In this document: piece after piece, positions 29,456 through 47,170 of the stretch
How the letters are laid out: the number at the start of each line of letters is the position of its first letter
How positions within the stretch are numbered: position 1 is the first letter of the stretch
The notes under the pieces: model-generated
What the model saw: the letters and a program-made list of their open reading frames with translations, nothing else
The model's database searches: none
What the model was told of the DNA's origin: nothing
Source of the DNA: Patescibacteria group bacterium
GTDB lineage: Bacteria > Patescibacteriota > Patescibacteriia > Veblenbacterales > UBA10138
Length of the DNA stretch: 64,000 nt
Direction: 5' to 3'
NCBI GenBank assembly: GCA_041645215.1
Contig: JBAZQK010000006.1
Coordinates: 12,116-76,115 of the forward strand
Position numbers and translations under genes: made by a program

Positions 29456-29689
29456 GTGTGGCGAGGTAGTATTTTGGCATCTTCCGCCACCAGCCCTAAT
29501 TTAGTACCAGCCATCAGGCAGGCGGCAACCATTGTAACAAATGAAGGCGGTTTGACCAGCTATGCCGCCATCGTGGCTAGAGAATTTAAGATTCCTTGCA
29601 TTGTGGAAACCAGAATAGGAACGCAAGTGTTTAAAGATGGTGATGCAGTGGAGGTTGATGCTAATAAGGGGATAGTTAGAAAGTTATGA
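29456..29689 (+). pseudogene. Orphan PEP-utilizing swivel-domain fragment with catalytic His replaced by Tyr (GGLTSYAAI)
   Basis: The 77-aa ORF aligns to the C-terminal ~60 aa of the downstream paralogs (AIVTNEGGxTxHAAIVAREL.IPCI...GD.VEVDAN.G). It has Y where the phosphohistidine normally sits and lacks any N-terminal domain. Confidence 0.45.
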
Positions 29690-31182
29690 CAAAAAAGATT
29701 ACTCTACCACCCAAAGTCATAAAATTAGTCAAGGGTAATGAGTGGTACCACCAGCGGTTTGATGGTGCACCGATGTATATGTATTGCGTAGCTGAAGCGG
29801 AAATTAAACCGGAAGCGAGAAAGCCTAAAGGCACCGAGGCTAAAATGCGCGTGTCTTTTTTTATGCCCAACGGCAGAGGGGATTGGTATTTGGATATGGC
29901 TGATGTTAAACGCGGCGCGCAAATAATTATTGATTTGGCTAAAAAAGATGCACTTATAAGCCGGAAATTACTAAAGGCCTGGCGTAAGGACGAAGAATTG
30001 TTTGAAAAGTTTTTCTACCGGTTTGAAGCCTCATCATTAGGAAAATTAATGGATAAAGATTTATTGGCTTTATATAAGCAATATTATAAATTGTTTGTTA
30101 ACCGTTTTACATCTTCGGCCATAATAGACCATTTTGCTCTAGGTACGGATGAATACATAGCTAATATATTAAGAAAGGAAATGGGAAAAATTAAAAAGGA
30201 GTCGGAGTTTACCGAAATATTCAGTATCGCCACAGCACCGACCAAGCAGTCTTTTATTAATGAATCAGAGATGAAGCTGTTGGCATTAGCTTTAAAACCA
30301 CATCTTTCGGCAAAAGACTTGCAAAACTATCAAAAAGATTATTTCTGGATAAAAAATAATTATTACCAGGCTAGAAACCTGACTGTAACTGATTTTAAGA
30401 AAGAAATAAGTATTTGGAAAAAGTCTGGGGCTAATTTAACAGCCAAATATTGGCAATTGAAAAATGCGTCCCGGATGAATGCTAGAAAAAAAAATATATT
30501 GTTTAAAAAATATAAATTATCAAAATTGCTAAGAACTTTGTTAAAAATTTCTGACGATTTTACTTGGTGGCAGGATGAACGTAAAAAATCCACTTATTTA
30601 AATATTCACATTGGTAGTTGTATTTTGGGAGAGATGGCTAAGCGACGTGGGTACAACCCGGAAGTTATGAAATATTTACTGCCTGTTGAAGTTGGTTCAA
30701 TGTTTTTAAAAGGTATACCGTCGGCGCAAGAATTAAAAAATCGGCAAAAGGGTTGTGCTTTTGTGGTTTGGCATGGCGGTTTTTATGTGGCTACCGGTAA
30801 ACAAGTAACAGTATTACGAAACTTAATGTTTTCTTCTAAAAATAAAGATGAAGTCAAGGATTTAAGAGGTTTAACCGCGTCAGTCGGTAGGGTAATCGGC
30901 CCAGTCAAGGTGGTTAACTCAGTTAGAGAGATTAGTAAGGTAAAAAAAGGAGATATATTAGTGGCTGTTATGACCCGACCCGATTATATTGTAGGTATTA
31001 AAAAAGCCGCCGCGATTGTTACCAATGAAGGTGGAATCACCTGCCATGCCGCCATTGTGGCGCGCGAACTTGGTATTCCGTGTATAATCGCTACCAAAAT
31101 CGCCACCGAAGTCTTGCATGATGGCGATTTAGTGGAAGTCAACGCTAATCATGGGGTGGTTACTGTGTTAAAGAGAAAATAA
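29686..31182 (+). CDS. PEP-utilizing-enzyme swivel phosphohistidine-domain protein, paralog 1 (N-terminal ~390-aa domain of unknown function; no ATP-grasp domain)
   Basis: C-terminus AAIVTNEGGITCHAAIVARELGIPCIIATKIATEVLHDGDLVEVNANHG matches the PEP-utilizers mobile domain with conserved His. The N-terminal domain carries the family motifs YFWIKNNYY and WWQDERK. Confidence 0.75.
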   Translation: MTKKITLPPKVIKLVKGNEWYHQRFDGAPMYMYCVAEAEIKPEARKPKGTEAKMRVSFFMPNGRGDWYLDMADVKRGAQIIIDLAKKDALISRKLLKAWRKDEELFEKFFYRFEASSLGKLMDKDLLALYKQYYKLFVNRFTSSAIIDHFALGTDEYIANILRKEMGKIKKESEFTEIFSIATAPTKQSFINESEMKLLALALKPHLSAKDLQNYQKDYFWIKNNYYQARNLTVTDFKKEISIWKKSGANLTAKYWQLKNASRMNARKKNILFKKYKLSKLLRTLLKISDDFTWWQDERKKSTYLNIHIGSCILGEMAKRRGYNPEVMKYLLPVEVGSMFLKGIPSAQELKNRQKGCAFVVWHGGFYVATGKQVTVLRNLMFSSKNKDEVKDLRGLTASVGRVIGPVKVVNSVREISKVKKGDILVAVMTRPDYIVGIKKAAAIVTNEGGITCHAAIVARELGIPCIIATKIATEVLHDGDLVEVNANHGVVTVLKRK

Positions 31183-31185
31183 TTT

Positions 31186-32607
31186 ATGACAAAATGGCAT
31201 TGGTATATGCGTGGCACTATTTATCCGCATCGGGCCGATATTGGACAATTGGGTATTTTTAAGTATGGAAAATATAATTTAATTCCCATAACATCAGATT
31301 TGTATATTAACGAAGGTTCTAGAATGTGGTGGGCGTGGGATGTAGCTCAAATCACAAAACTAGGTAATGCTATTTTAAAACAGTGTAAGACTAAATCTGG
31401 CGTTGCCAAACATGTAAATAAGCTAATTGCCTTATTGAGCAAGGCCATAGAGTCAGCCGATATATTTAAACAGGGAGATTTAACGAAATTAAGTGATAAA
31501 GAATTAGCCGGACAGTATCAATTACTTTACAAAGATAATTTGGAAACCCACGGCATTTTAAATGAAGATGTAGATGCGTTTGATGTGGTGTTTGATAATT
31601 TTTTGCAAACAGAATTAAGACGCTATGTTAATTTAGCTGGGGATAAATTTATTTCCGTCTATAAAGATTTGTCAACACCTTGCCATACTTCATATTTGCA
31701 ACAGCAAAACTATGATACAGCTAAGCTATATTTAAACTCAAAAGGTCAAAGCGAAACGGTTGATATTTTACATAATGAATATTGGTGGACAAGCATGGGT
31801 TGGGAAAGTATGAAGCCGCACAGTAAAGGTTATTTTATGCATCAGGTAAAAACAATGAACCGAGTTTTGGCAACAAGGATTATTAATGATTATAAAAAAC
31901 AAGCCGCTTTAGTTGCCAAACAGCGCCGGAGACTGCTTCGCCAATATAAGTTACCCAGGCAATTTAGTCGCTGGCTATGGGTTTTGGATAAGTATGCCTA
32001 TTTACATGACTGCAGAAAAGAAATGCAGGTTAAAACCATGTATGCTTATCATTTGATTTTATTAGAGACTGCTAAAAGGTTAAAGATTAAAGAATCGGAT
32101 TTGGAGTGGTTATTTCATAATGAGGTCGCGGGTTTATTAAAAGGTAAGAGACTTAATAAAAAACTGATAGCTGATAGAAAAATATCAGTGACCTCCCAGG
32201 TAACATCTAAAAAAATAATTATAAATGAAGGGAATAAAGCTCATCGGATAAAGATTAAAAGTCTTAATTTAGATAGAAAAAATATTACTTTAGTTAAGGG
32301 TTTGGCTGTAACTGCTGGTTTAGTACATGGACGTGCCTTGGTTTGTCAAGGGGCCAAAGAGGCCATTAGCAAAGTTAAACAAGGTGATATTTTGATATGC
32401 CCCATGACCTTACCGGATTATTTGCCAGCCATGAAAATGGCTAAAGCCATCGTGACAGATGAAGGTGGTTTAACCTGCCATGCTGCCATAATCGCGCGTG
32501 AGCTGGGTAAGGTTTGTATAGTTGGCACAAAAGAGGCCACCCGGGTATTTAAGACCGGCGATTTGGTAGAGGTTGATGCTAATAGAGGCGTTATTCGTAA
32601 GTTATAG
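31186..32607 (+). CDS. PEP-utilizing swivel-domain protein, paralog 2
   Basis: KAIVTDEGGLTCHAAIIARELGKVCIVGTKEATRVFKTGDLVEVDANRG. N-terminal domain homologous to paralog 1. Confidence 0.75.
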   Translation: MTKWHWYMRGTIYPHRADIGQLGIFKYGKYNLIPITSDLYINEGSRMWWAWDVAQITKLGNAILKQCKTKSGVAKHVNKLIALLSKAIESADIFKQGDLTKLSDKELAGQYQLLYKDNLETHGILNEDVDAFDVVFDNFLQTELRRYVNLAGDKFISVYKDLSTPCHTSYLQQQNYDTAKLYLNSKGQSETVDILHNEYWWTSMGWESMKPHSKGYFMHQVKTMNRVLATRIINDYKKQAALVAKQRRRLLRQYKLPRQFSRWLWVLDKYAYLHDCRKEMQVKTMYAYHLILLETAKRLKIKESDLEWLFHNEVAGLLKGKRLNKKLIADRKISVTSQVTSKKIIINEGNKAHRIKIKSLNLDRKNITLVKGLAVTAGLVHGRALVCQGAKEAISKVKQGDILICPMTLPDYLPAMKMAKAIVTDEGGLTCHAAIIARELGKVCIVGTKEATRVFKTGDLVEVDANRGVIRKL

Positions 32608-32610
32608 TTT

Positions 32611-33255
32611 ATGGAGAATAAAACTTTTTATCTTTGGGATTTGGCTGATACCATTTTTATTGAAAAATGGAACGCTGAATTATCCGGCGTGCCGTCTTTT
32701 AATGCTTATGTGGAGTCTTTGGGATATGATTTAAAAACTATCAGTCCTTTAGATTATGAATTATGTTATGAAAAACCGTATCGTGATGGTTTATATGATT
32801 TATCAATTGCTGATGGATTTAAAGAAGTTCTAACTTGGACGAAAAACAATGGCGTTTTTACTACTGGTAACAAAGAGCAAATTAATTGGCGAGCTGAACA
32901 GTTGTTAAGAAAATATGGGTTTGGCATTCGTGACTTTTTGAAAGAGATATATAGCACTTTTGATTATAGTAACACCAATGTTAAAACCGAAGCTATGTTA
33001 GTAGATTTAATAGGTAAAAAATTTAAGCAAGGGCTTGGGATTATAGTTTATACAGACGATAGAGAGGCTAATTGCAGGTTTTTTATTAGTGCAGCTGAAA
33101 AGTGTCAAAATAATGGGGTGAGGGTTGAATATCGGGTGTATAATTTAGGTAATGATGATAGTAAGTTAGAAAAATTGTCAGATAACTATTATAAAATTGG
33201 CGATCTATATCAATTGAAAGATAATGAAGAAAATTTATTAAAGCCCAATGATTAA
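32611..33255 (+). CDS. HAD-like hydrolase (atypical motif I DxxD), putative phosphatase
   Basis: YLWDLADTIF (motif I-like), VFTTGN (motif II-like), IIVYTDDREAN (motif IV-like). Shares the atypical DxxD(T/V) with 39597..40205. Confidence 0.45.
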   Translation: MENKTFYLWDLADTIFIEKWNAELSGVPSFNAYVESLGYDLKTISPLDYELCYEKPYRDGLYDLSIADGFKEVLTWTKNNGVFTTGNKEQINWRAEQLLRKYGFGIRDFLKEIYSTFDYSNTNVKTEAMLVDLIGKKFKQGLGIIVYTDDREANCRFFISAAEKCQNNGVRVEYRVYNLGNDDSKLEKLSDNYYKIGDLYQLKDNEENLLKPND

Positions 33256-34690
33256 TCCTAATAAAAATTTGTGGCGGTGGGGACCAATAGACGGCCGGCC
33301 GATATATCCGGACCCGTGGTACGACGGTATGACTGTTAATATGAAGGCATTTTCACCGAGTTGGCCAAGTAGTTATTCTTTATATAAAAAAGACAGGTAT
33401 TCTTATGTTTGTGAATATGAGCCTTTATATAAAAACGCGGAGAAAATATTCGTTAAGTATATATTGAATGAAGCCAATTTTAAAAGAATATACAGAAAAT
33501 GGCGCAATATTGTAAAGAGGTTAGTCAACCTAAATGCTAAAATGTCCCCAAGTAGTCTCAGGTCGTTAAATGATTTAGAACTCTATAAAACAATCAATTT
33601 ATGGTATAAAGTTTATAGTTATGAATTTTGGGGTGTTGGGTTAGTACCGGAAATTGCTAATTTTGGCGGGGAATCATTGCTTAGAAATATACTTCGGAAA
33701 AAATCTGTCGTTATGGGGGCGGAGGTTAGTTTAATGGAAAAGTTGTCGGCGCCTGATAAATTTTCGTTTTATACGCAAGAAGAAATAGATCTATTAAAAC
33801 TTCGTAAGATAAAAGGAAAGCCATTAAATCAGTCTTTGGTTAAGCATCAGCAAAAATATTTTTGGATACTGAATAGTTATCGCCAGACTAAAGTTTTATC
33901 AGTGGACTATTTTGCTAAGTACTTAAAAAAGTTTTCTAATGTACATGCTAGAGACAGAATAAAGGCATTAAAAAAACAAATAAAAATAGTTAAATTTATT
34001 AAAGCAAAGTTAGTACGTCAATATTCACTAGGTAAGGACGCATTGATGATATCTAACAAATTAGCTTGTTGTATTTGGTGGCAGGACAACAGAAAATCGT
34101 ATATATTTCAAACTAATCATGTTATAGATGTAATAGTTAATGAATTATCTCGTCGCTATGATATTAGTAAAAGCGATTTACATTATTATGTTTTTAAAGA
34201 TATTTTAAAATTAATTAAAACTGGAAAAAAATTATCAATTAAAGAACTAAAACAAAGACAAAGTTATTTTGCTGTGGTTTGGGATAGGCAGAAAGGGACT
34301 ATGTATGTATCCGGAGGTAAAGCTAAAAAGTTATATAATTTGTATCAAATAAAACCGAATGTTAAGTCTATAAAGCAAATTAGGGGTGAGGCTGTTAGCG
34401 CTGGAGTTGTTAAGGGTAAGGTGAGAGTTATTTTGTCAGCCCGTGAGGTCAATAAATTACGACCTGGAGAAATATTAATAACCACTATGACTTCGCCCGA
34501 TTTTATTGTGGCTATGCGTAAAGCTGCGGCCGTAGTAACCGACGTTGGTGGTATTACCAGCCACGCCGCTATAGTCTCGCGTGAACTTAGAATACCCTGC
34601 ATAGTGGGTACCAGAATCGCCACTAAAGTTTTGAGAAATGCTGATTTGGTGGAAGTTGATGCCAATAAAGGAATCGTTAAAAAATTATAA
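33248..34690 (+). CDS. PEP-utilizing swivel-domain protein, paralog 3
   Basis: AAVVTDVGGITSHAAIVSRELRIPCIVGTRIATKVLRNADLVEVDANKG; QQKYFWILNSYRQ and CIWWQDNRK motifs. Confidence 0.75.
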   Translation: MINPNKNLWRWGPIDGRPIYPDPWYDGMTVNMKAFSPSWPSSYSLYKKDRYSYVCEYEPLYKNAEKIFVKYILNEANFKRIYRKWRNIVKRLVNLNAKMSPSSLRSLNDLELYKTINLWYKVYSYEFWGVGLVPEIANFGGESLLRNILRKKSVVMGAEVSLMEKLSAPDKFSFYTQEEIDLLKLRKIKGKPLNQSLVKHQQKYFWILNSYRQTKVLSVDYFAKYLKKFSNVHARDRIKALKKQIKIVKFIKAKLVRQYSLGKDALMISNKLACCIWWQDNRKSYIFQTNHVIDVIVNELSRRYDISKSDLHYYVFKDILKLIKTGKKLSIKELKQRQSYFAVVWDRQKGTMYVSGGKAKKLYNLYQIKPNVKSIKQIRGEAVSAGVVKGKVRVILSAREVNKLRPGEILITTMTSPDFIVAMRKAAAVVTDVGGITSHAAIVSRELRIPCIVGTRIATKVLRNADLVEVDANKGIVKKL

Positions 34691-34694
34691 TTAT

Positions 34695-34724
34695 CCGCTC
34701 CCATGCTCTAGAGCATGGGAGCGG
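34695..34724. promoter_or_regulatory. Perfect 30-bp palindrome CCGCTCCCATGCTCTAGAGCATGGGAGCGG (putative operator, copy 1)
   Basis: Perfect dyad with a central CTCTAGAG. It lies between the paralog-3 stop and the AGGAGG SD of the YerC-like gene. Confidence 0.55.
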
Positions 34725-34741
34725 AGGAGGAAATAAGAATT

Positions 34742-35053
34742 ATGCCACGATATAATGAAAAAAGAATACCATATCAGACTCAAGAAAAACTTCTTGATAT
34801 GTTTTGTGATATTCTTAAAAACATGAAAAAACGTCAGGACGTTAAAGATTTTTTAAAAGATTTATTAAATCGTCAAGAACGAGTAATGTTGGTACGCCGA
34901 TTACTGATAGCTGATATGTTACTTAGAAAGTTATCTTATCGTGAAATTACAAATAAATTACGGTGTGGCTCTTCAACTATAGCGCGAGTAGAGCGTTGGT
35001 TAAATTTTGGTCGAGGTGGTTACAAACTAGCTATTAATCATAAAGTAAAATAA
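34742..35053 (+). CDS. TrpR-like/YerC-YecD family DNA-binding protein
   Basis: ...REITNKLRCGSSTIARVERWLNFGRGGYKLAI matches the YerC/YecD (Trp repressor-like) HTH. AGGAGG lies 12 nt upstream of ATG 34742; the tracked ORF starts at 34715, inside the palindrome. Confidence 0.65.
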   Translation: MPRYNEKRIPYQTQEKLLDMFCDILKNMKKRQDVKDFLKDLLNRQERVMLVRRLLIADMLLRKLSYREITNKLRCGSSTIARVERWLNFGRGGYKLAINHKVK

Positions 35054-35057
35054 TTAG

Positions 35058-35085
35058 TGCTCCCATGCTCTAGAGCATGGGAGCA
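35058..35085. promoter_or_regulatory. Second copy of the palindrome (TGCTCCCATGCTCTAGAGCATGGGAGCA)
   Basis: 28-bp perfect dyad sharing the 24-bp core CTCCCATGCTCTAGAGCATGGGAG. It sits immediately upstream of paralog 4. Confidence 0.55.
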
Positions 35086-35094
35086 AAGGTCTGT

Positions 35095-36615: not shown

Positions 36616-36630
36616 GTTATATAGATAAAT

Positions 36631-38094: not shown

Positions 38095-38112
38095 TTATTA
38101 ATTGTTATTTAT

Positions 38113-40205: not shown

Positions 40206-40208
40206 TTT

Positions 40209-41204
40209 ATGTTAAAAGAAAACAATTACGAAACTCATGAAAAGATGATGGCCACTACTTATATAGATTTAACCAGACATGGTAACCGATATGGCGGGCC
40301 GATGGAAATTACTTTTTACGACGGCAGCAAAATTAAATTTGATGATTCTACTGACCTTACCGAAGAAGGTCGAAAAGATGCTGTAAATTTTGGTGCCGAA
40401 GGAATTCCACCCGAAGTTACATTAGTACATTTACGTGGTGGTGACGAGCCAAGACACGGTCAAACTGGCGATGATATAGTAAAGGGAAGTGAAAAATTTG
40501 GAATACACAAAGAGGGGGAGGAGCCGTCGCCAGTTAGAGACAAGGCCGGTCGGGTAAAGGGAGCGAGACGAGGGCAAGGGGTTGATTATGCTAGTTCTGG
40601 TTTAATGCCATTTCTCAAACCATTTAAGCAAATGATAAATGATGAACTTAATAAGATAGTTTCTACTTTATCTCCAGAGGAGCAAGAGAAATTAAAAACC
40701 AATCCGGAACTTAGAGCCAAATATCGTGAGCAAGCACAAGTTTTCGGCCTTAAAGCTGCTATTAATGACCCAAAATTGGCTGAAATAGCTGCCGAGAATG
40801 AGGCTAATGAGTTGCTTCATGTTGTTGAGTTGTCGCGCAGGGGGGTGAAAGCTGGTGAAATTAAATCAATCCCTATAGTTGGTAGTGGTCTTTTTGCCGA
40901 ATCTTTGTTAAAACACGCTTTGGTGGTGGAGGATTTAGAAACCGCTAATAAAAAGACTGGATTTGAGTCGGTTGATGAAATTGGTGGATTTACTAAACAA
41001 GCCACTTCTTTTAGGATAAAACTTATGCGAGATGCGGAGTTGGGTGACGCGCGTAATATGGAAGATTTTAATAAAGATACCAAAGTTGAATACGAATTTA
41101 CTGACCCAGAAAGAAAGAAGTTGTTTGGCGGCAAAAAAGTATCTTTGGACTGGAATATTGTTAATGAATTGGCAAATAAGTTTAGGTTTAAGCGCCAAGG
41201 TTAA
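40209..41204 (+). CDS. Hypothetical protein; possible histidine-phosphatase-superfamily domain at N-terminus
   Basis: IDLTRHGNRYGGP...DLTEEGRKDAVNFG resembles the RHG...LTxxGxxxA signature of PGM/SixA-like phosphatases. The rest is uncharacterised. Confidence 0.3.
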   Translation: MLKENNYETHEKMMATTYIDLTRHGNRYGGPMEITFYDGSKIKFDDSTDLTEEGRKDAVNFGAEGIPPEVTLVHLRGGDEPRHGQTGDDIVKGSEKFGIHKEGEEPSPVRDKAGRVKGARRGQGVDYASSGLMPFLKPFKQMINDELNKIVSTLSPEEQEKLKTNPELRAKYREQAQVFGLKAAINDPKLAEIAAENEANELLHVVELSRRGVKAGEIKSIPIVGSGLFAESLLKHALVVEDLETANKKTGFESVDEIGGFTKQATSFRIKLMRDAELGDARNMEDFNKDTKVEYEFTDPERKKLFGGKKVSLDWNIVNELANKFRFKRQG

Positions 41205-41210
41205 CGAAAA

Positions 41211-42041
41211 ATGAATAATTTACCAAAATTAAAAATAGTGTCAATAACTAAATTGTGTTTACATGAAACTGTAGACCCAAAGCGTGTTTTGAAATTAAAA
41301 AAAATAATTAAAAAAGCTCACCTTTTTACCAATCCGCCAATTGTAAGTTATATACCAGCGATGGATAAATATTTAGTATTAGATGGTGCTAACCGTACTA
41401 CTACGCTTAAAGAATTGAATTTTAAATATATTTTAGTGCAATTAGTGGAATATAAAGACAGTGTTGTTGATTTATTAACTTGGAACCATTTTGTGTCCCA
41501 AATTAGTTTGCAAAGAGTTATTGATTTATTTAAAGGCTATAATAAAAAACTTAATATATTAAAGGTTAAATCTTCACAATCTGCTAAAAATTTGTTAGAC
41601 ACTAAACCAGGTGTAGTTTATATAACAGATGGCAAATTACATTATGTAATTAATAACTTTAAAGATTTTAAGGATGAAATTGCAATTTTGAATTTTGCAG
41701 TAAATATTTACAAAGGTAAACATAATTTTAATCGGATATTGGGTGATAATTATAAAATTTTAAAAAAGGAATACCCGAAAAATAAAGTACTGTTTGTATA
41801 TAAAAAACTACTTCAGCAAGATATTATAAAAGTGGTTAGAGCCGGACTCTATGTCCCGAGTGGTATATCGAGACATATAATTCAAGGTCGCGCTTTAAGA
41901 GTAGATATACCGATTGTTTGGCTAAAAGGTGCGGCCTCTTTGTTGTCATCTAATAAGAAGCTAAAAAAGTTAATTAACTCCCGACTTTCTTTGGGACAAA
42001 TTAGATATTACAGTGAGCCAACTTTTATTTTTAATGATTAG
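41211..42041 (+). CDS. ParB/Sulfiredoxin-like domain protein
   Basis: IVSITKLCLHETVDPKRVLKLKKII...PPIVSYIPAMDKYLVLDGANRTTTLKELN fits the ParB N-terminal/Srx fold pattern (hhDG.hR...L). Confidence 0.4.
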   Translation: MNNLPKLKIVSITKLCLHETVDPKRVLKLKKIIKKAHLFTNPPIVSYIPAMDKYLVLDGANRTTTLKELNFKYILVQLVEYKDSVVDLLTWNHFVSQISLQRVIDLFKGYNKKLNILKVKSSQSAKNLLDTKPGVVYITDGKLHYVINNFKDFKDEIAILNFAVNIYKGKHNFNRILGDNYKILKKEYPKNKVLFVYKKLLQQDIIKVVRAGLYVPSGISRHIIQGRALRVDIPIVWLKGAASLLSSNKKLKKLINSRLSLGQIRYYSEPTFIFND

Positions 42042-42046
42042 ATTTT

Positions 42047-43534
42047 ATGGCAAAAATTCCTAGTTGGCAATATTATTTTGCACGTAAATTTTCCTTACAG
42101 CGTTTTGAGATTATATCACGGGTTTTTTATTCGCCCTTTTATTTTAAGCATTTTAAAGTTAATTTAAAAAATATTTTGGTCAAACCAGGCCAAAGTCATA
42201 ATTATGAAATTTGGTTAGACAGAGATGAATATAAAATAGCCGTTAATAGAGTATATAAAACAGTCTGTAAGAATTATCATACCTATAAATATTATCGTAA
42301 AATTTTTATACAGACTCAACTTAGATTTCTTAAGGTGGCGATGATGGTGGCTCGCCAAACAAACAATAGATTAACTAATAAAGAATTGGGTAAATTATAT
42401 AGGTTGTTTACTCGCCACCTACAGAAGCTTAATAGTAAGCCAATTATAGTAGTGTTTATGATTGAACCGTTGGTTAGTTCAGCTGCGGTAATGATTTTGA
42501 CGGATATTCTCAAACGAAATAGTAAAATGAATGAGTATGATAATGGTCTTTCTATAATATTTTCACCTGATACTAAAACAGCCGTACCGCAGATGCGGCA
42601 GGCGTTGTTAAAAATTGCCTTAGGAGTTAAAACTGGTAGGTTAAATAAAACAAAGACAAGATATTTGCTTAATAGAGTCGTGAAGCAATATAATTTTTTG
42701 CCATGTTACGATATTATTGATAAGCCATGGGATTATGATTATTTTAAAAACGAGTTAAAGGGAATACTTAAAAGAACTGTAGTGGAATTAAAAAGCGAAT
42801 TAAAAGATATGAACATAGTGTGGCGTCAACGTAAAAATAATTTTAAAGCTTTTTTATCAAGATATGACATTAGCCAATCGGAAGAAGATATTTTAAGAAT
42901 TGCACACGATTTAGTTTTTATAAAAGACGAGAGAGATGATTATCGGCGTCGCGGTGGTTACTATGGTCGAAGACTTTTTGCCGAGATTGGCCAAAGATTA
43001 GACGTAGATTTACGCGCAGCTTGTTATTTAACTGTAGACGAAACAGAAGGTTTTTTATTTAGAGATATTAAACCATCTCGTGAGTTACTAAAAGAAAGGC
43101 AGACAACTTATTTATTATTACGTAAGTTAGGATCTCCTACTGCAGTAGCAAGTGGAGGTCAGATAAAAGCAATTATAAAAAATGAACATTTTCTATCATT
43201 AGATCAGTCTAAAGTTGATGAAATAACTGGTGTAGCAGGTTCTGTTGGTATGGCTAGAGGTTCAGTTATTATTGTTAATACTAAACATGATTTACGACGT
43301 GTCTTGCCTGGTTCAATTATGATAGCAGTTACTACCAGTCCGGATTATGTACCCGTTATGAGATTGTGTAAGGCGATTGTAACTAACGAAGGTGGAATAA
43401 CCTCTCACGCCGCCATAGTTTGTCGAGAATTAAGAATACCATGTATAGTTGGTACTAAAATAGCAACCAGAATATTCAAAGATGGCGATTTAGTAGAGGT
43501 TGACACCAAGAGGGGAATAGTGAGAAAATTGTAA
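42047..43534 (+). CDS. PEP-utilizing swivel-domain protein, paralog 7
   Basis: KAIVTNEGGITSHAAIVCRELRIPCIVGTKIATRIFKDGDLVEVDTKRG. Confidence 0.75.
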   Translation: MAKIPSWQYYFARKFSLQRFEIISRVFYSPFYFKHFKVNLKNILVKPGQSHNYEIWLDRDEYKIAVNRVYKTVCKNYHTYKYYRKIFIQTQLRFLKVAMMVARQTNNRLTNKELGKLYRLFTRHLQKLNSKPIIVVFMIEPLVSSAAVMILTDILKRNSKMNEYDNGLSIIFSPDTKTAVPQMRQALLKIALGVKTGRLNKTKTRYLLNRVVKQYNFLPCYDIIDKPWDYDYFKNELKGILKRTVVELKSELKDMNIVWRQRKNNFKAFLSRYDISQSEEDILRIAHDLVFIKDERDDYRRRGGYYGRRLFAEIGQRLDVDLRAACYLTVDETEGFLFRDIKPSRELLKERQTTYLLLRKLGSPTAVASGGQIKAIIKNEHFLSLDQSKVDEITGVAGSVGMARGSVIIVNTKHDLRRVLPGSIMIAVTTSPDYVPVMRLCKAIVTNEGGITSHAAIVCRELRIPCIVGTKIATRIFKDGDLVEVDTKRGIVRKL

Positions 43535-43560
43535 GACTACTGAATTTTTATATTTTTAAT

Positions 43561-44397
43561 ATGTTTAATAAGATAAGTTTTATTCAACAATTATTTCTAA
43601 ACCAAGCCAAACAGGGGAAACGACGTAAAATAGCCATTGGTATTTGGCGGCCGGAACAGGCAGTAGTAGACGGTTTAAAAGCCGCTACTGATTATGCGGA
43701 TTTAACAGTGGTTGGCTGTGATATACCTGGTCTTGATTGTATACCAACTGTTAACGATGATGAGGCTAGCCGCAAAATAATTGAATTGTTAAGGACAAGC
43801 AAGGTTGAAGGCTTTGTTAGGGCTCAACTCAAAGATTCCTACACTCACAAGGTATATTTAGAAACCTTTAAAAAAGAAGAACCTAAATTTAAATTCTGTC
43901 CATTTACCATAACTAATGATGATTATTGGTTTACCATTTCCAGTCCGTCTAATTATAACTCTTTAACTTTGGAAGCAAAACTAGCGGAGGCTGAGAGGGC
44001 CGCTAAATGGCTTAGTGATTTAGGTATAAAGCCAAAAATTGGTGTTACCAGTACTAGGCGTTTATCCGGGCGAGTTGGTGAATTTGGTTTACTGGAGGAA
44101 ATTGCTGAGAACTGTGAAAAAACCACTAAGCATTTAACTGATATGGGTTTTGAAGTAAAGGAATATTATATTGAGTACGAACGAGCCGTGTGGGAAGGGT
44201 GTAATTTAATAATTCCGTCAACTGGAATGATTGGCAATACCTGGTCTAAGGGTTTAACTTTTCTTGGCGGTTGGACTAATGTGTGCTGTCCTATGTTAGA
44301 TGAAGGTGTGTATTATGATGATACAGCTCGTAATCATGTAAATTGGTTTTGGCCTATTATCTCAACAGTTGCTTGGATAAATAGGGAAAAATCGTAG
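43561..44397 (+). CDS. Hypothetical protein (weak resemblance to phosphate acyl/acetyltransferase PTA/PlsX fold)
   Basis: KRRKIAIGIWRPEQAVVDGLKAATDYADLTVVG loosely matches the PTA_PTB N-terminal pattern. Low confidence. Confidence 0.25.
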   Translation: MFNKISFIQQLFLNQAKQGKRRKIAIGIWRPEQAVVDGLKAATDYADLTVVGCDIPGLDCIPTVNDDEASRKIIELLRTSKVEGFVRAQLKDSYTHKVYLETFKKEEPKFKFCPFTITNDDYWFTISSPSNYNSLTLEAKLAEAERAAKWLSDLGIKPKIGVTSTRRLSGRVGEFGLLEEIAENCEKTTKHLTDMGFEVKEYYIEYERAVWEGCNLIIPSTGMIGNTWSKGLTFLGGWTNVCCPMLDEGVYYDDTARNHVNWFWPIISTVAWINREKS

Positions 44398-44478
44398 GTT
44401 GACATATTTAATGTTTTGTATTACTATTAACAGTTAAATAAATCTAAACAAAAAAGCAAAAGGAGGAGAAAGATAATT

Positions 44479-45777
44479 ATGGAGATGAAAAAAGAATTAT
44501 CAGAATCTACAGAGAACCTTGAAAACAAGGAACGTTTTAAGTTGGCCGCTAAAAATATCATTGACTGTTTTTCCTTTAATCCGGAAAAAGAAAGTTTGCT
44601 GGTTATAACTGATGGCAAGGTTATTGAAACTAATAATGATTTTATAGAAGCCATATCAGGTGAATTAAATTTACGTACGCAGGATAAACAACGTACTAAG
44701 GGCAATTGGGAGATGGTGGTTGTACCGGCATCACCTAAATCTGCTACGCCGCTGGGCGAAATGATTGGCGAAAAAATGAAAAATCGTCCGGTGTTAATAG
44801 TAACCTCAATGTCACGTTCTCATTCTAAAGAAACAGGAGCTGCCTTTAGAGGTGATATATCAGATAAGTCGGTATTTGATGAAATTATTGCCAGCAAAAC
44901 TTTTCGTAATACAGTAGCCAATGGTTATTCGGCATATACTCCGGAAAGGTTAGAAACTATTGGTAATAAATTACCTGATTCCACCTACGAAAAAATGAAA
45001 CTGTTTGCTAAAAACAATCGCAGCCGAATCATTTCTATTACTAAGGGTCATAATCCTTATGAGATATTAACTCGTGGCGCGGTAGAGGAGCCGGTGGAAA
45101 ATCTTAAGGAAAGAGCCAGTAAAGTAAATGAAATCATGAAAGACGTTGTGAGGGTTCATATTACTTCGTCCTTGGGAACAGATATTTGGTTAAGCCTCAG
45201 CACTGATTTAAAAGAAGTTGAAGATGGTAACTTGGGTAAGCCGGGTAGTTTATCTAATTACCCAATAGGTGAGTGGTCGTGTTCGCCTGATTGGAAAGAT
45301 TCTGATGGTGTATTGGTAATTGATGGTCCGTGCGGAGGTAACATTAACCAAGATATTATTGATCAAAGTAGTCCATTTATTTTGACTTTTAAAAACGGCG
45401 AGGTAATTGATATTAAAGGTGAAGGCCAGGCGTTAGAAATGTGGAAAAATTATCTTGATAGTGGCAACAACGAAAAGAATCAGGCTTACAAACTAGCTGA
45501 ATTTGCGGTAGGGACTAACACCAAGGCGCTTAAAGATAAACCGCGTGAATTTTGGGGATCCTCAGAAGGAGAAAAAGTCTATGGTACGGCCCATATAGCC
45601 GTTGGCAGTAATGGTTCTTTCGGGCGTACACCAGATGATCCTAATTATAATTCAGCGGCGGTACATTGTGATATGGTTCTGGGTTTGCACAAAAAAAATC
45701 GCGTGACAGTTGAATGTCAGAAAAAAGATGGAGCCAAATTCGTTTTGATTGATAATGGTGAGCCAAAAGAATATTAA
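44479..45777 (+). CDS. Putative M29-family (aminopeptidase T/AmpS-like) aminopeptidase
   Basis: Length ~430 aa. The C-terminal GTAHIAVGSN... block resembles the conserved HIAxG region of M29 peptidases. Confidence 0.35.
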   Translation: MEMKKELSESTENLENKERFKLAAKNIIDCFSFNPEKESLLVITDGKVIETNNDFIEAISGELNLRTQDKQRTKGNWEMVVVPASPKSATPLGEMIGEKMKNRPVLIVTSMSRSHSKETGAAFRGDISDKSVFDEIIASKTFRNTVANGYSAYTPERLETIGNKLPDSTYEKMKLFAKNNRSRIISITKGHNPYEILTRGAVEEPVENLKERASKVNEIMKDVVRVHITSSLGTDIWLSLSTDLKEVEDGNLGKPGSLSNYPIGEWSCSPDWKDSDGVLVIDGPCGGNINQDIIDQSSPFILTFKNGEVIDIKGEGQALEMWKNYLDSGNNEKNQAYKLAEFAVGTNTKALKDKPREFWGSSEGEKVYGTAHIAVGSNGSFGRTPDDPNYNSAAVHCDMVLGLHKKNRVTVECQKKDGAKFVLIDNGEPKEY

Positions 45778-45848
45778 TTATTTCTTCATATTTTAAAATA
45801 TCCCTGATTATGTATAATGTAGTCAGGGATTAATTTTTATTAATCATT

Positions 45849-46859
45849 ATGCAATTTATTCTACCTTTTTCTAAAATATCCAAAAAAGACGTAGGTTTAG
45901 CCGGTGGGAAGGGGGCGAGTTTGGGGGAAATGTCACAGGCGGGCATCCCGGTGCCGCCGGGGTTTGTGGTGCTGGCCACGGCTTTTGACCGGTTTTTGCA
46001 CGAAACCGGGTTGGAGGTGGATATTGAGGCGCAGTTAAAAAAGGTTAATTATAAGGATGTTAATTCAGTTGATAAATACAGTGCGGTAATTCGTGATTTG
46101 ATTCATCGCGCCAAAATGCCTAGAGATTTGCAAAGCGAAATTATGAACGCTTATGCCAATCTGGTGAGTGGACAACGGCAAATAGTTAATAATAAGGCAG
46201 TCACCAGCCATAAACTATCAGCTATCAGCCAACTGCCATTTTATGTCGCGGTGCGGTCTTCGGCCACGGCTGAGGATTCCACCCAGGCCTCGTGGGCCGG
46301 GGAGTTGGAGACTTATTTAAATACCACCGAGAAAGATTTATTAAGGTATGTGAAGGATTGCTGGTCGTCCCTGTTTACGCCGCGGGCGATTTTTTATAGA
46401 CGTGAGAAAAAAATGCATAAAGCCAAAGTTTCAGTGGCGGTAGTGGTGCAGGCTATGGTGCAATCGGAAATTTCGGGTGTTGCTTTTACCGTGCACCCGG
46501 TTACCAAAGACCGTAACCAAATGATTATTGAGGCTGGCTATGGTTTGGGCGAGGCGATTGTGTCCGGCCAGATTACGCCTGATTCCTATATTATAGATAA
46601 AAAAAACTTGTCGCTATTGGATATCAACGTGGCCGAGCAAACGCGGCAGTTGATCGGTTTGGTTAAGGGCGGAAATAAGTGGCAAGCCGTGGCTAAAAAA
46701 GACGGCGCTAAACAAAAATTAACCGGCCAGCAAATAATTGAACTGGCTAAAATTTGCGTTAACATTGAACAGCATTATAAATTTCCCTGTGATATTGAAT
46801 GGGCGTACTATAAGGGCAAATTCTACATAACTCAATCCCGCCCCATCACCACGCTTTGA
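45849..46859 (+). CDS. Stand-alone PEP-utilizing-enzyme N-terminal ATP-grasp nucleotide-binding domain (PPDK_N; PEP synthase/RPH-like)
   Basis: KDVGLAGGKGASLGEMSQAGIPVPPGFVV matches the N-terminal signature of PEP synthase/rifampin phosphotransferase. At 336 aa it equals the ATP-grasp domain only, with no swivel or substrate domain. Confidence 0.8.
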   Translation: MQFILPFSKISKKDVGLAGGKGASLGEMSQAGIPVPPGFVVLATAFDRFLHETGLEVDIEAQLKKVNYKDVNSVDKYSAVIRDLIHRAKMPRDLQSEIMNAYANLVSGQRQIVNNKAVTSHKLSAISQLPFYVAVRSSATAEDSTQASWAGELETYLNTTEKDLLRYVKDCWSSLFTPRAIFYRREKKMHKAKVSVAVVVQAMVQSEISGVAFTVHPVTKDRNQMIIEAGYGLGEAIVSGQITPDSYIIDKKNLSLLDINVAEQTRQLIGLVKGGNKWQAVAKKDGAKQKLTGQQIIELAKICVNIEQHYKFPCDIEWAYYKGKFYITQSRPITTL

Positions 46860-47112: not shown

Positions 47113-47170
47113 TCAATATCATTTTACATAACCCTACCAAATTAGTAGGGTTATGTTATAATGGCAAAGT

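What the first reader, a model, noticed from the sequence alone, without database searches (positions are those of the whole stretch)
29456..46859. Tandem array of seven split RPH/PEP-synthase-like phosphotransferase paralogs with one shared stand-alone ATP-grasp module
Seven consecutive genes encode ~475-510-aa paralogs. Each has a conserved C-terminal PEP-utilizing-enzyme swivel phosphohistidine domain (GG.T[CS]HAAI.[AS]REL...VEVDA) and a homologous but highly diverged ~380-aa N-terminal domain (motifs YFWI..NY and W.DERK). None carries the ATP-grasp nucleotide-binding domain that precedes the swivel domain in PEP synthase, PPDK, rifampin phosphotransferase and flavonoid phosphate synthetase. 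That domain occurs once, as a separate 336-aa gene (45849..46859) at the distal end of the array. The array also holds two atypical HAD-like phosphatases, a histidine-phosphatase-like gene, a ParB/Srx-like gene, an M29-like peptidase and a TrpR-like regulator with operator-like palindromes. My inference is that one ATP-grasp module pyrophosphorylates, in trans, a panel of swivel carriers whose divergent N-terminal domains bind different substrates (small molecules, by analogy with RPH/FPS). The phosphatase genes would be cognate antagonists. I do not know a described system with this architecture.
Basis: partly seen in the sequence, partly recalled or inferred. Interest (0 to 1): 0.9.

Follow-up and report, generated by a model that had tools for sequence, protein, structure and literature searches.

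The report
One ATP-grasp gene, seven dikinase modules
An ultra-small (Patescibacteria) bacterium has seven very different copies of a "substrate-binding plus phosphate-carrier" protein but only one copy of the ATP-using partner they need; this layout recurs across ultra-small bacteria and archaea and probably forms a multi-substrate phosphorylation system whose targets are unknown.

Summary
Seven intact genes (29686-43534) each encode an N-terminal helical domain plus a C-terminal PEP-utilizer swivel domain with the catalytic His. None has an ATP-grasp. A single PPDK_N-only gene sits at 45849-46859. An eighth copy (29456-29689) is a truncated relic with His replaced by Tyr.

A high-confidence AlphaFold model of one paralog matches rifampin phosphotransferase (RPH) over 403 of 480 residues. 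The N-domain is therefore an RPH-type substrate-binding domain, not a cryptic ATP-grasp.

The split itself is not new. Two-component RPH-like dikinases (HpeHI, CreHI, PpsAB) are already described. What appears undescribed is the one-to-many layout, and it is not peculiar to this genome. Arrays of 3-9 diverged modules with exactly one stand-alone ATP-grasp recur in Patescibacteria and DPANN archaea, and natural fusions of one ATP-grasp with two modules exist.

Best reading: a hub-and-spoke dikinase system. One conserved ATP-grasp charges the swivel His of many substrate-specific modules. Substrates are unknown. Neighbouring genes (HAD and histidine-phosphatase-like proteins, a SerK/SbnI-like kinase, nucleotidyltransferases elsewhere) point to small phospho-metabolites. 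All of this rests on comparative genomics, not on experiment.

Verdict: new variant of a known kind, moderately high interest.

The parts
29456..29689 (+). Relic of an eighth paralog: a 77-aa ORF equal to the last ~75 residues of a swivel domain, with the catalytic His replaced by Tyr (GGLTSYAAI). Its stop overlaps the start of the next gene (ATGA).
   Evidence: BLASTP E 7e-32, up to 69% identity to swivel domains; stops in frame upstream; all 409 other swivel motifs in the fetched loci have His.
29686..31182 (+). Paralog NC1 (498 aa): RPH-type substrate-binding domain plus swivel His domain (His454).
   Evidence: Pfam PF00391 E 6e-25. Cross-genome orthologues reach 59% identity in the N-domain, including DPANN loci at 39%.
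31186..32607 (+). Paralog NC2 (473 aa; His432).
   Evidence: PF00391 E 4e-26. phmmer aligns residues 281-471 to RPH-Lm 673-864. NCBIfam RPH/PigC models match from residue ~210-280 onward.
32611..33255 (+). 214-aa protein of unknown family.
   Evidence: No Pfam or NCBIfam hit. Orthologue inside the Uhrbacteria array L005 (E 2e-81). hhalign to HAD probability 3%. AF2 pLDDT 37.
33248..34690 (+). Paralog NC3 (480 aa; His439). This is the modelled member.
34694..34725 (.). Perfect 32-bp palindrome TCCGCTCCCATGCTCT|AGAGCATGGGAGCGGA, just upstream of the likely true start (ATG 34742, RBS GGAGGAGG) of the TrpR-like gene. Candidate operator.
   Evidence: The half-site occurs only 4 times in the window, all within the two palindromes.
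34715..35053 (+). TrpR-related regulator of the YerC/YecD family.
   Evidence: Pfam Trp_repressor E 1e-17. TIGR02531 scores 49.6 bits, above the 42.2 cut-off.
35058..35085 (.). Second copy of the palindrome (28 bp, perfect), immediately upstream of the likely true start of NC4 (ATG 35095).
35077..36615 (+). Paralog NC4 (512 aa as listed; His469).
   Evidence: PF00391 E 8e-23.
36631..38094 (+). Paralog NC5 (487 aa; His443). Its motif is D-x-K-K instead of D-x-R-K.
   Evidence: PF00391 E 2e-27. Motif.
38113..39600 (+). Paralog NC6 (495 aa; His450), the most divergent (motif N-R-R-V). It is the first gene of a conserved NC6-HAD-histidine-phosphatase-like triple.
   Evidence: PF00391 E 2.5e-24. 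N-domain orthologues of 72%, 56% and 54% identity in L026, L005 and L023, each followed by the HAD gene.
39597..40205 (+). HAD-family phosphatase (subfamily IA; YjjG/YihX-like). Its start overlaps the NC6 stop.
   Evidence: Pfam Hydrolase E 4e-14. TIGR02254 E 1e-16; glucose-1-phosphatase model E 5e-11.
40209..41204 (+). Divergent histidine-phosphatase (PGAM-like) superfamily protein. It keeps the R-H nucleophile motif and the second Arg; the distal His is replaced by Ser.
   Evidence: invariant R23, H24, R82; profile hit to PhoE 1ebb at E 7e-4; Pfam His_Phos_1 in 3 of 7 relatives. Precomputed His_Phos_1 (weak/faint) on neighbours in L081 and L083.
41211..42041 (+). ParB/Srx-fold protein of the SerK/SbnI (free L-serine kinase) family.
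   Evidence: NF033589 SbnI E 1.2e-24 (residues 6-273) and NF053625 SerK E 6e-14, both below the curated cut-offs. Orthologue in L025.
42047..43534 (+). Paralog NC7 (495 aa; His454). Its motif is D-E-R-D.
   Evidence: PF00391 E 8e-25. Motif.
43561..44397 (+). Mmp4/MtxX-like protein.
   Evidence: TIGR03270 E 4.5e-16, below cut-off. Orthologues in arrays L014 and L025.
44479..45777 (+). M29/NicX-like metallo-enzyme.
   Evidence: Pfam Peptidase_M29 E 4e-12. PF26233 NicX on the identical protein. Orthologue in L025.
45800..45830 (+). Stem-loop followed by a T-rich tract, between the array and the ATP-grasp gene. A TATAAT lies in the loop. Possible terminator and/or promoter region that separates the two transcription units.
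   Evidence: Pattern match only.
45849..46859 (+). Stand-alone ATP-grasp (PPDK_N) protein of 336 aa, the proposed shared phosphoryl-donor hub.
   Evidence: PF01326 E 1e-97. PEP synthase model residues 5-337 at E 5e-101. ATP-binding motifs GGKGASLGEM, VRSSATAEDS, DIEWA and QSRPIT are invariant in 33 orthologues. Orthologues are 65-84% identical. Host-like GC3 of 0.50 against 0.20-0.36 in the array.

Best explanation
This is a hub-and-spoke, two-component dikinase system of the rifampin-phosphotransferase (RPH) type.

**Proposed mechanism.**
1. The single ATP-grasp protein (45849-46859) binds ATP and transfers the beta-phosphate to the catalytic His of the C-terminal swivel domain of each of the seven module proteins. 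This acts in trans and gives AMP + Pi.
2. The swivel domain then returns to its own N-terminal RPH-type helical domain.
3. There it passes the phosphate to the substrate bound in that domain.

**Specificity.** Each module has a different, anciently diverged N-domain. I infer that each phosphorylates a different, probably small-molecule, substrate.

**Accessory genes.** The interspersed genes are a HAD phosphatase, a histidine-phosphatase/mutase-like protein, a SerK/SbnI-like kinase, an MtxX-like protein and an M29/NicX-like protein. They most likely process the phosphorylated products. Part of the array is probably controlled by the YerC/TrpR-like regulator through the twin palindromes.

**Shown versus inferred.**
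- Shown: domain content, fold, conservation of catalytic motifs, recurrent 1:many gene order, and fusions.
- Inferred: trans-phosphorylation, dikinase chemistry, distinct substrates, and the physiological role. My preferred guess for the role is scavenging or activation of metabolites by organisms with minimal biosynthesis.
For: 1. **Domain complementarity.** The modules have only PF00391. The hub has only PF01326.
3. **Catalytic elements.** All seven intact modules have the catalytic His. The conserved Asp of the D-x-R-K motif lies 157-160 residues upstream of the His in all seven. RPH Glu667 to His825 is 158 residues, and by ungapped extrapolation of the phmmer alignment the Lys falls at RPH Lys670.
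4. **Precedent.** HpeHI, CreHI and PpsAB are split RPH-like dikinases in which both components are required. HpeH alone catalyses the second half-reaction (PMC12167813).
5. **Module-side survey.** In 79 genomic loci from Patescibacteria and DPANN, arrays of 5-9 modules carry exactly one stand-alone ATP-grasp in 9 loci (L003, L006, L007, L013, L014, L025, L026, L030, L050). No locus has two.
6. **Hub-side survey.** Three long genomic contigs show the hub at the 3' end of a module array. Of 27 stand-alone hub loci with at least 8 kb on both sides, 23 have at least 1, 20 at least 2 and 17 at least 3 swivel-only genes within 10 kb. All are on the hub's strand.
7. **Rosetta-stone fusions.** Single-chain G-N-C proteins exist whose G part ends exactly where the stand-alone hub ends. 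Polypeptides with one PPDK_N and two swivel modules also exist (L065, L038, L133).
8. **Conservation pattern expected of a shared hub.** Hub identity between the window and other loci averages 61%, against 34% for the best module (54 of 56 loci). Swivel domains are 50% identical against 18% for N-domains. Synonymous sites are saturated, so this is selection and not gene conversion.
9. **Old, distinct paralogs.** Five of the seven window N-domains have a clear cross-genome orthologue (35-72% identity) that is far closer than any in-window paralog (at most 29%). Best outside hits for NC4 and NC7 are only 23-25% identical.
Against: - There is no biochemical evidence for any member of this Patescibacteria/DPANN family.
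- About half of the large arrays found from the module side show no hub within the fetched +/-10 kb, though several are cut by contig ends. Four of 27 well-flanked hubs have no module nearby. Pairing therefore cannot always be read from gene order.
- In the window the hub is separated from the array by a terminator-like hairpin and has a clearly different base composition (GC3 0.50 against 0.20-0.36). Co-transcription is not assured.
- NC5, NC6 and NC7 deviate in the D-x-R-K motif. Some modules may use different chemistry or be inactive.
- Only 64 kb of the genome was seen, so further ATP-grasp genes elsewhere cannot be excluded.
- HpeH and HpeI form no stable complex (PMC12167813), so promiscuous versus dedicated pairing cannot be judged from precedent.
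- Substrates are entirely unknown.
Confidence: 0.65

Rival explanations
1. Dedicated pairing. The ATP-grasp protein serves only one module, or a few (for example the nearest). The other paralogs are charged by a different donor, or are catalytically silent binding proteins.
For: A terminator-like hairpin and a composition break separate the hub from the array. NC5, NC6 and NC7 deviate in the catalytic motif. All characterised split dikinases are 1:1 pairs. Some arrays lack a hub nearby.
Against: All seven keep the catalytic His and a PEP-synthase-type swivel consensus. No other phosphoryl-donor domain (PEP-utilizers_C, second PPDK_N) is in the window or in 160 related loci. Natural G-NC-NC fusions show that one ATP-grasp can serve two modules. 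The swivel is far more conserved than the N-domain in every paralog.
Confidence: 0.12
2. Regulatory phospho-relay rather than metabolism. The modules are ligand sensors whose phospho-His state controls partner enzymes, as proposed for the PPDK-derived histidine kinase VadK of M. tuberculosis.
For: VadK shows that dikinase-derived proteins can act as regulatory kinases that interact with enzymes (PMC13400623). Substrates of the modules are unknown.
Against: The N-domain has the RPH substrate-binding fold, with the equivalents of RPH Glu667 and Lys670 at the right spacing. Neighbours are enzymes of small phospho-metabolite chemistry, not signalling outputs. Seven or more sensors in a roughly 1-Mb genome with few pathways to regulate is implausible (inference).
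Confidence: 0.08
3. Mobile defence or resistance island. The low-GC 16-kb block is a horizontally acquired island whose modules inactivate antibiotics or toxins (as RPH does) or act against phages.
For: GC3 is 0.20-0.36 in the block against 0.44-0.56 in the flanks. RPH itself is a resistance enzyme (PMC4844700). N-domains are extremely diverse and patchily distributed: 126 clusters at 30% identity among 294 proteins. One module triple is more similar to another lineage than the hub is (L026). A decayed relic copy shows turnover.
Against: There are no PADLOC hits. The N-domain has no hit in phage, plasmid or IMG/VR collections. There is no tRNA or integrase signature at the borders. The hub-Rrf2-Sod-Suf position is syntenic in another genome (L083). 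Lower GC3 of modules is a general trend in 35 loci, not special to this one. Detoxification remains possible as the physiological role within the main mechanism.
Confidence: 0.08
4. Degenerate PEP synthase. The ATP-grasp ORF is a fragment of a disrupted ppsA, and the paralogs are decaying duplicates.
For: The hub and swivel sequences score best against PEP synthase models. One truncated relic copy exists.
Against: More than 100 orthologous stand-alone ORFs of 311-345 aa are 65-84% identical and all stop at ...QSRPITTL. Downstream of the hub lie 311 bp of non-coding DNA and then the Rrf2 gene, and no ORF of the window or of about 160 related loci looks like a canonical PEP synthase half. All seven paralogs are full-length, and five have clear conserved orthologues in other genomes.
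Confidence: 0.02

Closest known systems
Two-component small-molecule dikinases HpeHI, CreHI and PpsAB (phenylphosphate synthase) (PMC12167813)
   Same: The ATP-grasp is a separate ~310-340-aa protein. The partner carries an RPH-type substrate-binding domain followed by a C-terminal swivel His domain. The presumed chemistry is ATP to AMP + Pi with a phospho-His intermediate.
   Different: Those systems are 1:1 gene pairs in Actinobacteria and Proteobacteria that act on phenolic aromatics. Here one ATP-grasp accompanies seven modules (3-9 elsewhere). The N-domain is shorter (~375 aa). Only the swivel part matches the PRK08296 NCBIfam models, ~570-630-residue models with a C-terminal swivel that I take, from memory, to be the HpeH/PpsA-type subunit. 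The swivel keeps the PEP-synthase consensus GGxT[CS]HAAI, including the Thr that HpeH-type proteins lack. The lineages are Patescibacteria and DPANN.
Rifampin phosphotransferase RPH (PDB 5hv1, 5fbs; PMC4844700)
   Different: RPH is a single chain with its own N-terminal ATP-grasp. Sequence identity is only ~16%. RPH Arg666 is not conserved in position (an Arg lies three residues later). Nothing suggests rifamycin as a substrate.
PEP synthase / pyruvate phosphate dikinase
   Same: The hub and the swivel domains are most similar in sequence to those of PEP synthase: NF005057 at E 5e-101 for the hub and ~1e-32 to 1e-37 for the swivels. The swivelling phospho-His mechanism is shared.
   Different: No PEP/pyruvate-binding domain is present in any of these proteins or nearby: Pfam reports only PF01326 on the hub and only PF00391 on the seven modules, and the fused ~800-aa relatives are G-N-C rather than PEP synthases. 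The swivel is C-terminal, not central.
Bacterial PTS (Enzyme I/HPr with many sugar-specific Enzymes II), an analogy of logic only
   Same: One general energy-coupling component feeds phosphate through a phospho-His swivel domain (homologous to that of Enzyme I) to a panel of substrate-specific components.
   Different: The donor is ATP through an ATP-grasp, not PEP. There are no membrane permease components, no HPr, and no homology of the specificity domains. The comparison rests on established knowledge of the PTS and was not tested here.

Membership tests
RPH-like small-molecule dikinases (ATP-grasp + substrate-binding domain + swivel His domain) | ATP-grasp (PPDK_N) nucleotide-binding module with intact ATP-binding motifs | tested here: met
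   45849-46859: PF01326 E 1e-97. GGKGASLGEM, VRSSATAEDS, DIEWA and QSRPIT are invariant in 33 orthologues. It is a separate polypeptide.
RPH-like small-molecule dikinases (ATP-grasp + substrate-binding domain + swivel His domain) | C-terminal swivel phosphohistidine domain with the catalytic His | tested here: met
   PF00391 at the C-terminus of all seven. His is present in all seven. The relic at 29456 has Tyr.
RPH-like small-molecule dikinases (ATP-grasp + substrate-binding domain + swivel His domain) | Helical substrate-binding domain with the fold of the RPH rifampin-binding domain | tested here: met
RPH-like small-molecule dikinases (ATP-grasp + substrate-binding domain + swivel His domain) | Catalytic acidic residue and Lys equivalent to RPH Glu667 and Lys670 (with Arg666) | tested here: inconclusive
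   Asp is present in 6 of 7 and Lys in 5 of 7, at the RPH spacing to the His (157-160 against 158). The mapping is extrapolated a few residues beyond the phmmer alignment. Arg is shifted by three positions. NC6 and NC7 deviate.
RPH-like small-molecule dikinases (ATP-grasp + substrate-binding domain + swivel His domain) | Dikinase activity: ATP + substrate gives AMP + Pi + phospho-substrate through phospho-His | not testable with these tools
   Needs enzyme assays.
Two-component subfamily (HpeHI / CreHI / PpsAB) | ATP-grasp and substrate/swivel parts encoded as separate genes | tested here: met
Two-component subfamily (HpeHI / CreHI / PpsAB) | One ATP-grasp gene paired with one substrate/swivel gene | tested here: not met
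   1:7 in the window. 1:3 to 1:9 in many related loci.
Two-component subfamily (HpeHI / CreHI / PpsAB) | Sequence membership of the large subunit in the HpeH/PpsA-type family | tested here: not met
   The PRK08296-type NCBIfam models (~570-630 residues, swivel at the C-terminus; that these represent the HpeH/PpsA-type subunit is my own assumption, not checked) match only the swivel part (for example residues 385-497 of NC1 to profile 496-608) and fall far below their cut-offs. The N-domain is a separate, unannotated family of about 5,000 clusters at 50% identity.
PEP synthase (PpsA) | PEP/pyruvate-binding C-terminal domain (PEP-utilizers_C) and a central swivel | tested here: not met
   Pfam finds only PF01326 on the hub and only PF00391 on the modules, so no such domain is present in these eight proteins. 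Scores against PEP synthase models are far below cut-off (109-127 and 339 bits against 598). The ~800-aa fused relatives are G-N-C, not PEP synthases.
SerK/SbnI free-serine kinases (for gene 41211) | Full-length match to family models above the curated cut-off | tested here: not met
   SbnI model: E 1.2e-24 but 87 bits against a 350 cut-off. SerK: 52 bits against 380. It is a distant relative with the same fold family, and its substrate is not established.

The most novel reading that the evidence does not exclude
Patescibacteria and DPANN archaea possess a PTS-like general phosphorylation machine. One highly conserved ATP-grasp 'energy-coupling' protein serves a large repertoire of substrate-specific dikinase modules (about 5,000 clusters at 50% identity) that is horizontally exchangeable and non-redundant within a genome. 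Together these constitute the main small-molecule scavenging or activation kinome of these ultra-small episymbionts.
Probability: 0.3. Interest if true: 0.8.

Novelty: new variant of a known kind. Interest (0 to 1): 0.62.

Why it matters
Patescibacteria and DPANN make up a large share of microbial diversity, have genomes of about 1 Mb, and depend on hosts for most metabolites. Most of their lineage-specific genes have no assigned function.

Here about 16 kb of such a genome, a large investment for genomes of that size (inference from typical Patescibacteria genome sizes), is devoted to one enzyme system. Its mechanism can be predicted with some confidence from characterised relatives, while its substrates are unknown.

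If one ATP-grasp really drives many substrate-specific modules, this would be the first one-to-many dikinase system. It would be an ATP-driven counterpart of the logic of the PTS. Dikinases spend two phosphoanhydride bonds per phosphorylation. In the characterised HpeHI enzyme this goes with sub-micromolar Km values and a proposed scavenging role. The system is therefore a concrete, testable handle on what these organisms take from their hosts or environment.

The family is large, unannotated beyond 'PEP-utilizing enzyme', and now has a clear experimental entry point: a hub plus a panel of modules expressed in E. coli.

Tried and rejected
- **Hub as a ppsA fragment: rejected**.
- **Gene conversion as the cause of swivel conservation: rejected.** Third-position identity at conserved four-fold codons is about 0.36 against 0.29 expected by chance.
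- **'UDP-GlcNAc 2-epimerase' fusions** (P0028 and others): spurious. These are sub-threshold hits that overlap the swivel domain; the proteins are NC-NC tandem fusions.
- **Fused 'GC' proteins of ~800 aa:** first taken for PEP synthases. They are G-N-C RPH-order proteins with N-domains too diverged for my HMM.
- **Anti-phage defence models:** no hits.
- **Phage, plasmid and IMG/VR collections:** no N-domain hits. IMG/VR hits cover the swivel only.
- **tRNA genes and Rfam families or riboswitches:** none, including the 5' leader at 29300-29750.
- **Gene 32611 as HAD:** no Pfam or NCBIfam hit; hhalign probability 3%; the two-sequence alignment was not accepted for AF2; the single-sequence model had pLDDT 37. 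Left unresolved.
- **AFDB fold library:** unavailable.
- **Literature:** searches for swivel or PEP-utilizer expansions in Patescibacteria/DPANN returned nothing relevant. The library lacks most subscription journals, so absence is not proof.
- **Palindrome** searched in 163 related loci: no copies.

Full report
**What is there.** The window comes from a Patescibacteria (CPR) metagenome-assembled genome. The proteins at 33248 and 45849 are 100% identical to NCBI entries named 'MAG... [Patescibacteria group bacterium]' on an 87.9-kb contig.

Between the housekeeping genes frr/rseP and Rrf2-sodA-sufCBD lie 18 co-oriented, tightly packed genes. Seven of them (29686, 31186, 33248, 35077, 36631, 38113, 42047; 473-512 aa) have a single recognisable Pfam domain. 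This is PF00391, the PEP-utilizer swivel domain, at the very C-terminus (E 8e-23 to 2e-27). None has a PPDK_N domain.

All seven keep the catalytic His in a PEP-synthase-type G-G-x-[TS]-[CS]-H-A-A motif. Their N-terminal ~375-400 residues are homologous but only 15-25% identical. The swivel parts are 41-57% identical.

One gene, 45849-46859, is PPDK_N and nothing else (E 1e-97). It is the only ATP-grasp detectable among the ORFs of the 64-kb window.

The finding's start coordinate (29456) is itself informative. It is a 77-aa ORF that corresponds to the last ~75 residues of a swivel domain (E 7e-32). Its catalytic His is replaced by Tyr, there are in-frame stops upstream, and its stop codon overlaps the start of the first intact paralog. 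It is a decayed eighth copy. All 409 other swivel motifs in the related loci have His.

NCBIfam RPH, PigC and PRK06241 models and phmmer also extend from the swivel into the C-terminal third of the N-domain. For example, residues 281-471 of the 31186 protein align to RPH-Lm 673-864.

The family's conserved D-x-R-K motif lies 157-160 residues before the catalytic His in all seven paralogs. In RPH, Glu667 (which holds His825) lies 158 residues before it, and Lys670 falls on the family's Lys. Stogios et al. showed that Arg666 and Glu667 are essential for the second half-reaction (PMC4844700). This mapping is extrapolated a few residues beyond the aligned block. NC5, NC6 and NC7 deviate from the motif.

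The N-domain is an RPH-type substrate-binding domain.

**The ATP-grasp gene is a real stand-alone gene.** Its best 120 homologues all carry PF01326 as their only Pfam domain. All but one are 307-345 aa, they are 65-84% identical to it, and those with a source name come from Patescibacteria. In 33 aligned orthologues the nucleotide-binding motifs and the C-terminal ...QSRPITTL are invariant.

Single-chain relatives from the same lineages (about 800 aa, order G-N-C as in RPH) continue into the helical domain exactly where the stand-alone protein stops. Pfam finds no PEP/pyruvate-binding domain on the hub or on any of the seven modules, and none of the fused relatives in about 160 related loci is a canonical PEP synthase. 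The second refutation condition, a disrupted ppsA, is not met.

**Is it known?** The split architecture is known. PpsAB (phenylphosphate synthase), CreHI and HpeHI are two-component dikinases. In them a ~340-aa ATP-grasp protein works with a protein that carries the RPH-like substrate domain and the swivel His. Both components are required, and HpeH alone catalyses phosphotransfer between substrates (PMC12167813). Those are 1:1 pairs acting on phenolics.

I found no paper describing swivel-module arrays in Patescibacteria or DPANN. The searchable library is incomplete, so this is not proof of absence.

**The one-to-many layout is widespread.**
In the 79 best loci, named by their records as many CPR phyla and Nano-, Woese-, Pace-, Micr- and Iainarchaeota, tandem arrays are the rule. 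Nine arrays of 5-9 modules contain exactly one stand-alone ATP-grasp, and no locus has two. About as many large arrays show none within the fetched DNA; several of these are cut by contig ends.
- *From the hub side.* In three long genomic contigs (977, 831 and 305 kb) the hub sits at the 3' end of an array of PEP-utilizer genes, together with HAD and His_Phos_1-like genes. In one of them the hub is followed by Rrf2-Sod-SufCBD exactly as in the window, so the position is syntenic. Among 27 metagenomic or genomic hub loci with at least 8 kb on both sides, 23 have at least one, 20 at least two and 17 at least three swivel-only genes within 10 kb. All lie on the hub's strand.
- *Fusions.* Continuous ORFs with one PPDK_N and two swivel modules (L065, L038, L133), and NC-NC(-NC) fusions, exist.
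- *Family size.* An N-domain profile finds 4,954 clusters at 50% identity (3,531 at E of 1e-10 or better) among 1.84 billion representatives. Most are 470-530 aa.

The array is common, but it is annotated only as 'PEP-utilizing enzyme' or 'phosphohistidine swiveling domain-containing protein', with no function.

**Evolutionary pattern.**
- Five of the seven window paralogs have a clear orthologue elsewhere that is far closer than any in-genome paralog. N-domain identities run from 35% to 72%, against at most 29% within the window. These include archaeal loci at 37-39%. For NC4 and NC7 the best outside hits are only 23-25% identical, so their orthology is not established.
- Among 294 modules from 109 loci there are 126 N-domain clusters at 30% identity, 77 of them singletons. 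Paralogs in one locus almost never share a cluster at 35% or above. Each array is thus a non-redundant panel drawn from a very large repertoire.
- The hub is much more conserved than the modules (mean 61% against 34%; 54 of 56 loci). One telling exception is L026, where the NC6 module is 74% identical but the hub only 64%.
- Synonymous sites between the window's swivel domains are saturated. Their conservation therefore reflects selection, as expected if all must dock on one partner.
- In the window the 16-kb block has GC3 of 0.20-0.36. The hub (0.50), the relic (0.41) and the flanks (0.44-0.56) are host-like. A weaker bias of the same sign is general: hub minus modules is +0.07 in 35 loci and never below -0.1.

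I read this as a vertically kept hub with modules that turn over and are sometimes exchanged. Lower expression of the modules is an alternative cause of the composition bias.

**Accessory genes.**
- NC6-HAD-(331-aa protein) is a conserved, translationally coupled triple in three other genomes.
- The HAD is subfamily IA, YjjG/YihX-like.
- The 331-aa protein belongs to a divergent histidine-phosphatase/PGAM-like group, but its distal His is replaced by Ser.
- Gene 41211 is a distant SerK/SbnI-family (ParB/Srx fold) free-serine-kinase homologue. With the MtxX-like and M29/NicX-like genes it forms a triad that is also present in a Buchananbacteria array.
- Across other arrays the commonest companions are histidine-phosphatase-like, HD and HAD proteins and small TagD/RfaE/PPAT-like nucleotidyltransferases. 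One of the latter overlaps the first module in L082.
- All of these act on small phosphorylated metabolites. This supports small-molecule substrates but does not identify them. Nothing shows that the phosphatases are 'antagonists'.
- A YerC/YecD TrpR-like regulator lies mid-array. Two perfect palindromes (32 and 28 bp, shared core GCTCCCATGCTCTAGAGCATGGGAGC) sit just upstream of the probable true starts of the regulator and of NC4. They occur nowhere else in the window.

**Mechanism proposed.** By homology with RPH and HpeHI, the hub binds ATP and pyrophosphorylates or phosphorylates the swivel His of a module. The swivel then returns to its own N-domain and phosphorylates the bound substrate, giving AMP + Pi. 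One hub serves all modules in trans.

The logic resembles the PTS, with a general energy-coupling protein and many specific components. That comparison is an analogy from general knowledge, not a tested relationship.

As to the physiological role, my preferred guess is scavenging or activation of metabolites. Dikinases give a strong thermodynamic pull, and HpeHI has sub-micromolar Km values and is proposed to act as a scavenging system. Detoxification, or synthesis of activated phospho-precursors, is not excluded.

**Rivals.**
- Dedicated pairing of the hub with only some modules.
- A regulatory phospho-relay like VadK.
- A mobile resistance or defence island. There are no PADLOC, phage, plasmid or IMG/VR hits, no tRNA, and the position is syntenic.
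- A degenerate ppsA, which the comparative data refute.

**Limits.**
- No experiment exists for this family.
- Only 64 kb of the genome was visible, so other ATP-grasp genes cannot be excluded.
- A terminator-like hairpin (45800-45830) and the composition break separate the hub from the array.
- Three modules deviate in the catalytic motif.
- Some taxon labels of the related loci (Gammaproteobacteria or Methanosarcinales MAGs from co-assemblies) may reflect mis-binning and were taken as given.

**Verdict.** The finding is a real, well-delimited feature. It is mechanistically a new one-to-many variant of the known two-component RPH-like dikinases, and it belongs to a large, functionally uncharacterised family typical of Patescibacteria and DPANN. 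Interest 0.62.

Noticed in passing
window 29456-29689: A 77-aa ORF that is the 3' remnant of an eighth paralog. It covers only the last ~75 residues of the swivel domain, the catalytic His is replaced by Tyr, there are in-frame stops upstream, and its GC is host-like (0.46). It points to gene decay or replacement at the array's 5' edge.
   Followed up: yes
window 34694-34725 and 35058-35085: Two perfect palindromes (32 and 28 bp) share the core GCTCCCATGCTCTAGAGCATGGGAGC. They lie directly upstream of the probable true start codons of the TrpR/YerC-like gene (ATG 34742) and of paralog NC4 (ATG 35095). The longest-ORF starts at 34715 and 35077 fall inside the palindromes and are probably not used.
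   Followed up: partly
window 29686-45777 versus 45849-46859 and flanks: There is a sharp composition break. All 18 array genes have GC3 of 0.20-0.36, while the ATP-grasp gene (0.50) and the neighbouring housekeeping genes (0.44-0.56) are alike. A weaker bias of the same sign is seen in 35 other loci.
   Followed up: partly
window 45800-45830: A 14-bp-stem hairpin followed by a T-rich tract lies between the last array gene and the ATP-grasp gene, with a TATAAT in its loop. It may terminate array transcripts and/or carry the hub's own promoter.
   Followed up: no
window 41211-42041: The 'ParB/Srx-like' gene is a distant member of the SerK/SbnI free L-serine kinase family (E 1e-24, below the curated cut-off). 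This is a second, unrelated type of small-molecule kinase inside the array.
   Followed up: partly
window 40209-41204: The histidine-phosphatase-like protein keeps the R-H nucleophile motif and the second Arg. It has Ser where relatives have the distal catalytic His (VGSG against VSHG), as does its Uhrbacteria orthologue.
   Followed up: partly
window 45849-46859, residues ~105-128: The window's ATP-grasp protein is 336 aa, against 312-314 aa for most orthologues. The extra ~22 residues (…SGQRQIVNNKAVTSHKLSAISQLPF…) lie just before the VRSSATAEDS strand.
   Followed up: no
window 47003-47049 and 47126-47156: Two imperfect inverted repeats (22-nt arms at 82% complementarity; 15-nt arms at 93%) lie in the 311-bp gap upstream of the Rrf2 regulator gene. 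They are candidate Rrf2 operators for the Rrf2-sod-suf cluster.
   Followed up: no
L065:384-4319, L038:4460-7924, L133:2146-6198, L040:6209-17494, L073:247-6230: Very long continuous ORFs (1,150-3,760 aa) fuse one ATP-grasp with two or more module units. NC-NC and NC-NC-NC fusions without an ATP-grasp also exist (L027, L033, L061, L080, P0028). I did not check whether some are assembly or frameshift artefacts.
   Followed up: partly
many loci, e.g. L003:14514-15575, L019:12432-13499, L130:12504-15650, L149:15954-19298: A second recurrent class of ~340-380-aa proteins has the swivel domain but an N-terminal part that my N-domain HMM does not recognise. It is often tandemly repeated within the same arrays and is absent from the window.
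   Followed up: no
L082:3371-3796 with 3783-5324; L040:4763-5173 and 6 other loci: A small (~140 aa) cytidylyl/adenylyl-transferase-like gene (best models RfaE domain II, TagD, PPAT) recurs next to arrays, and in L082 it overlaps the first module gene. It hints at a kinase-then-nucleotidyltransferase activation route for at least one substrate.
   Followed up: no
L026 versus window (38113-41204): The NC6-HAD-histidine-phosphatase-like module is more similar between these two genomes (NC6 74% full-length) than their ATP-grasp hubs are (64%). This is the reverse of the general pattern and suggests horizontal exchange of module cassettes.
   Followed up: partly
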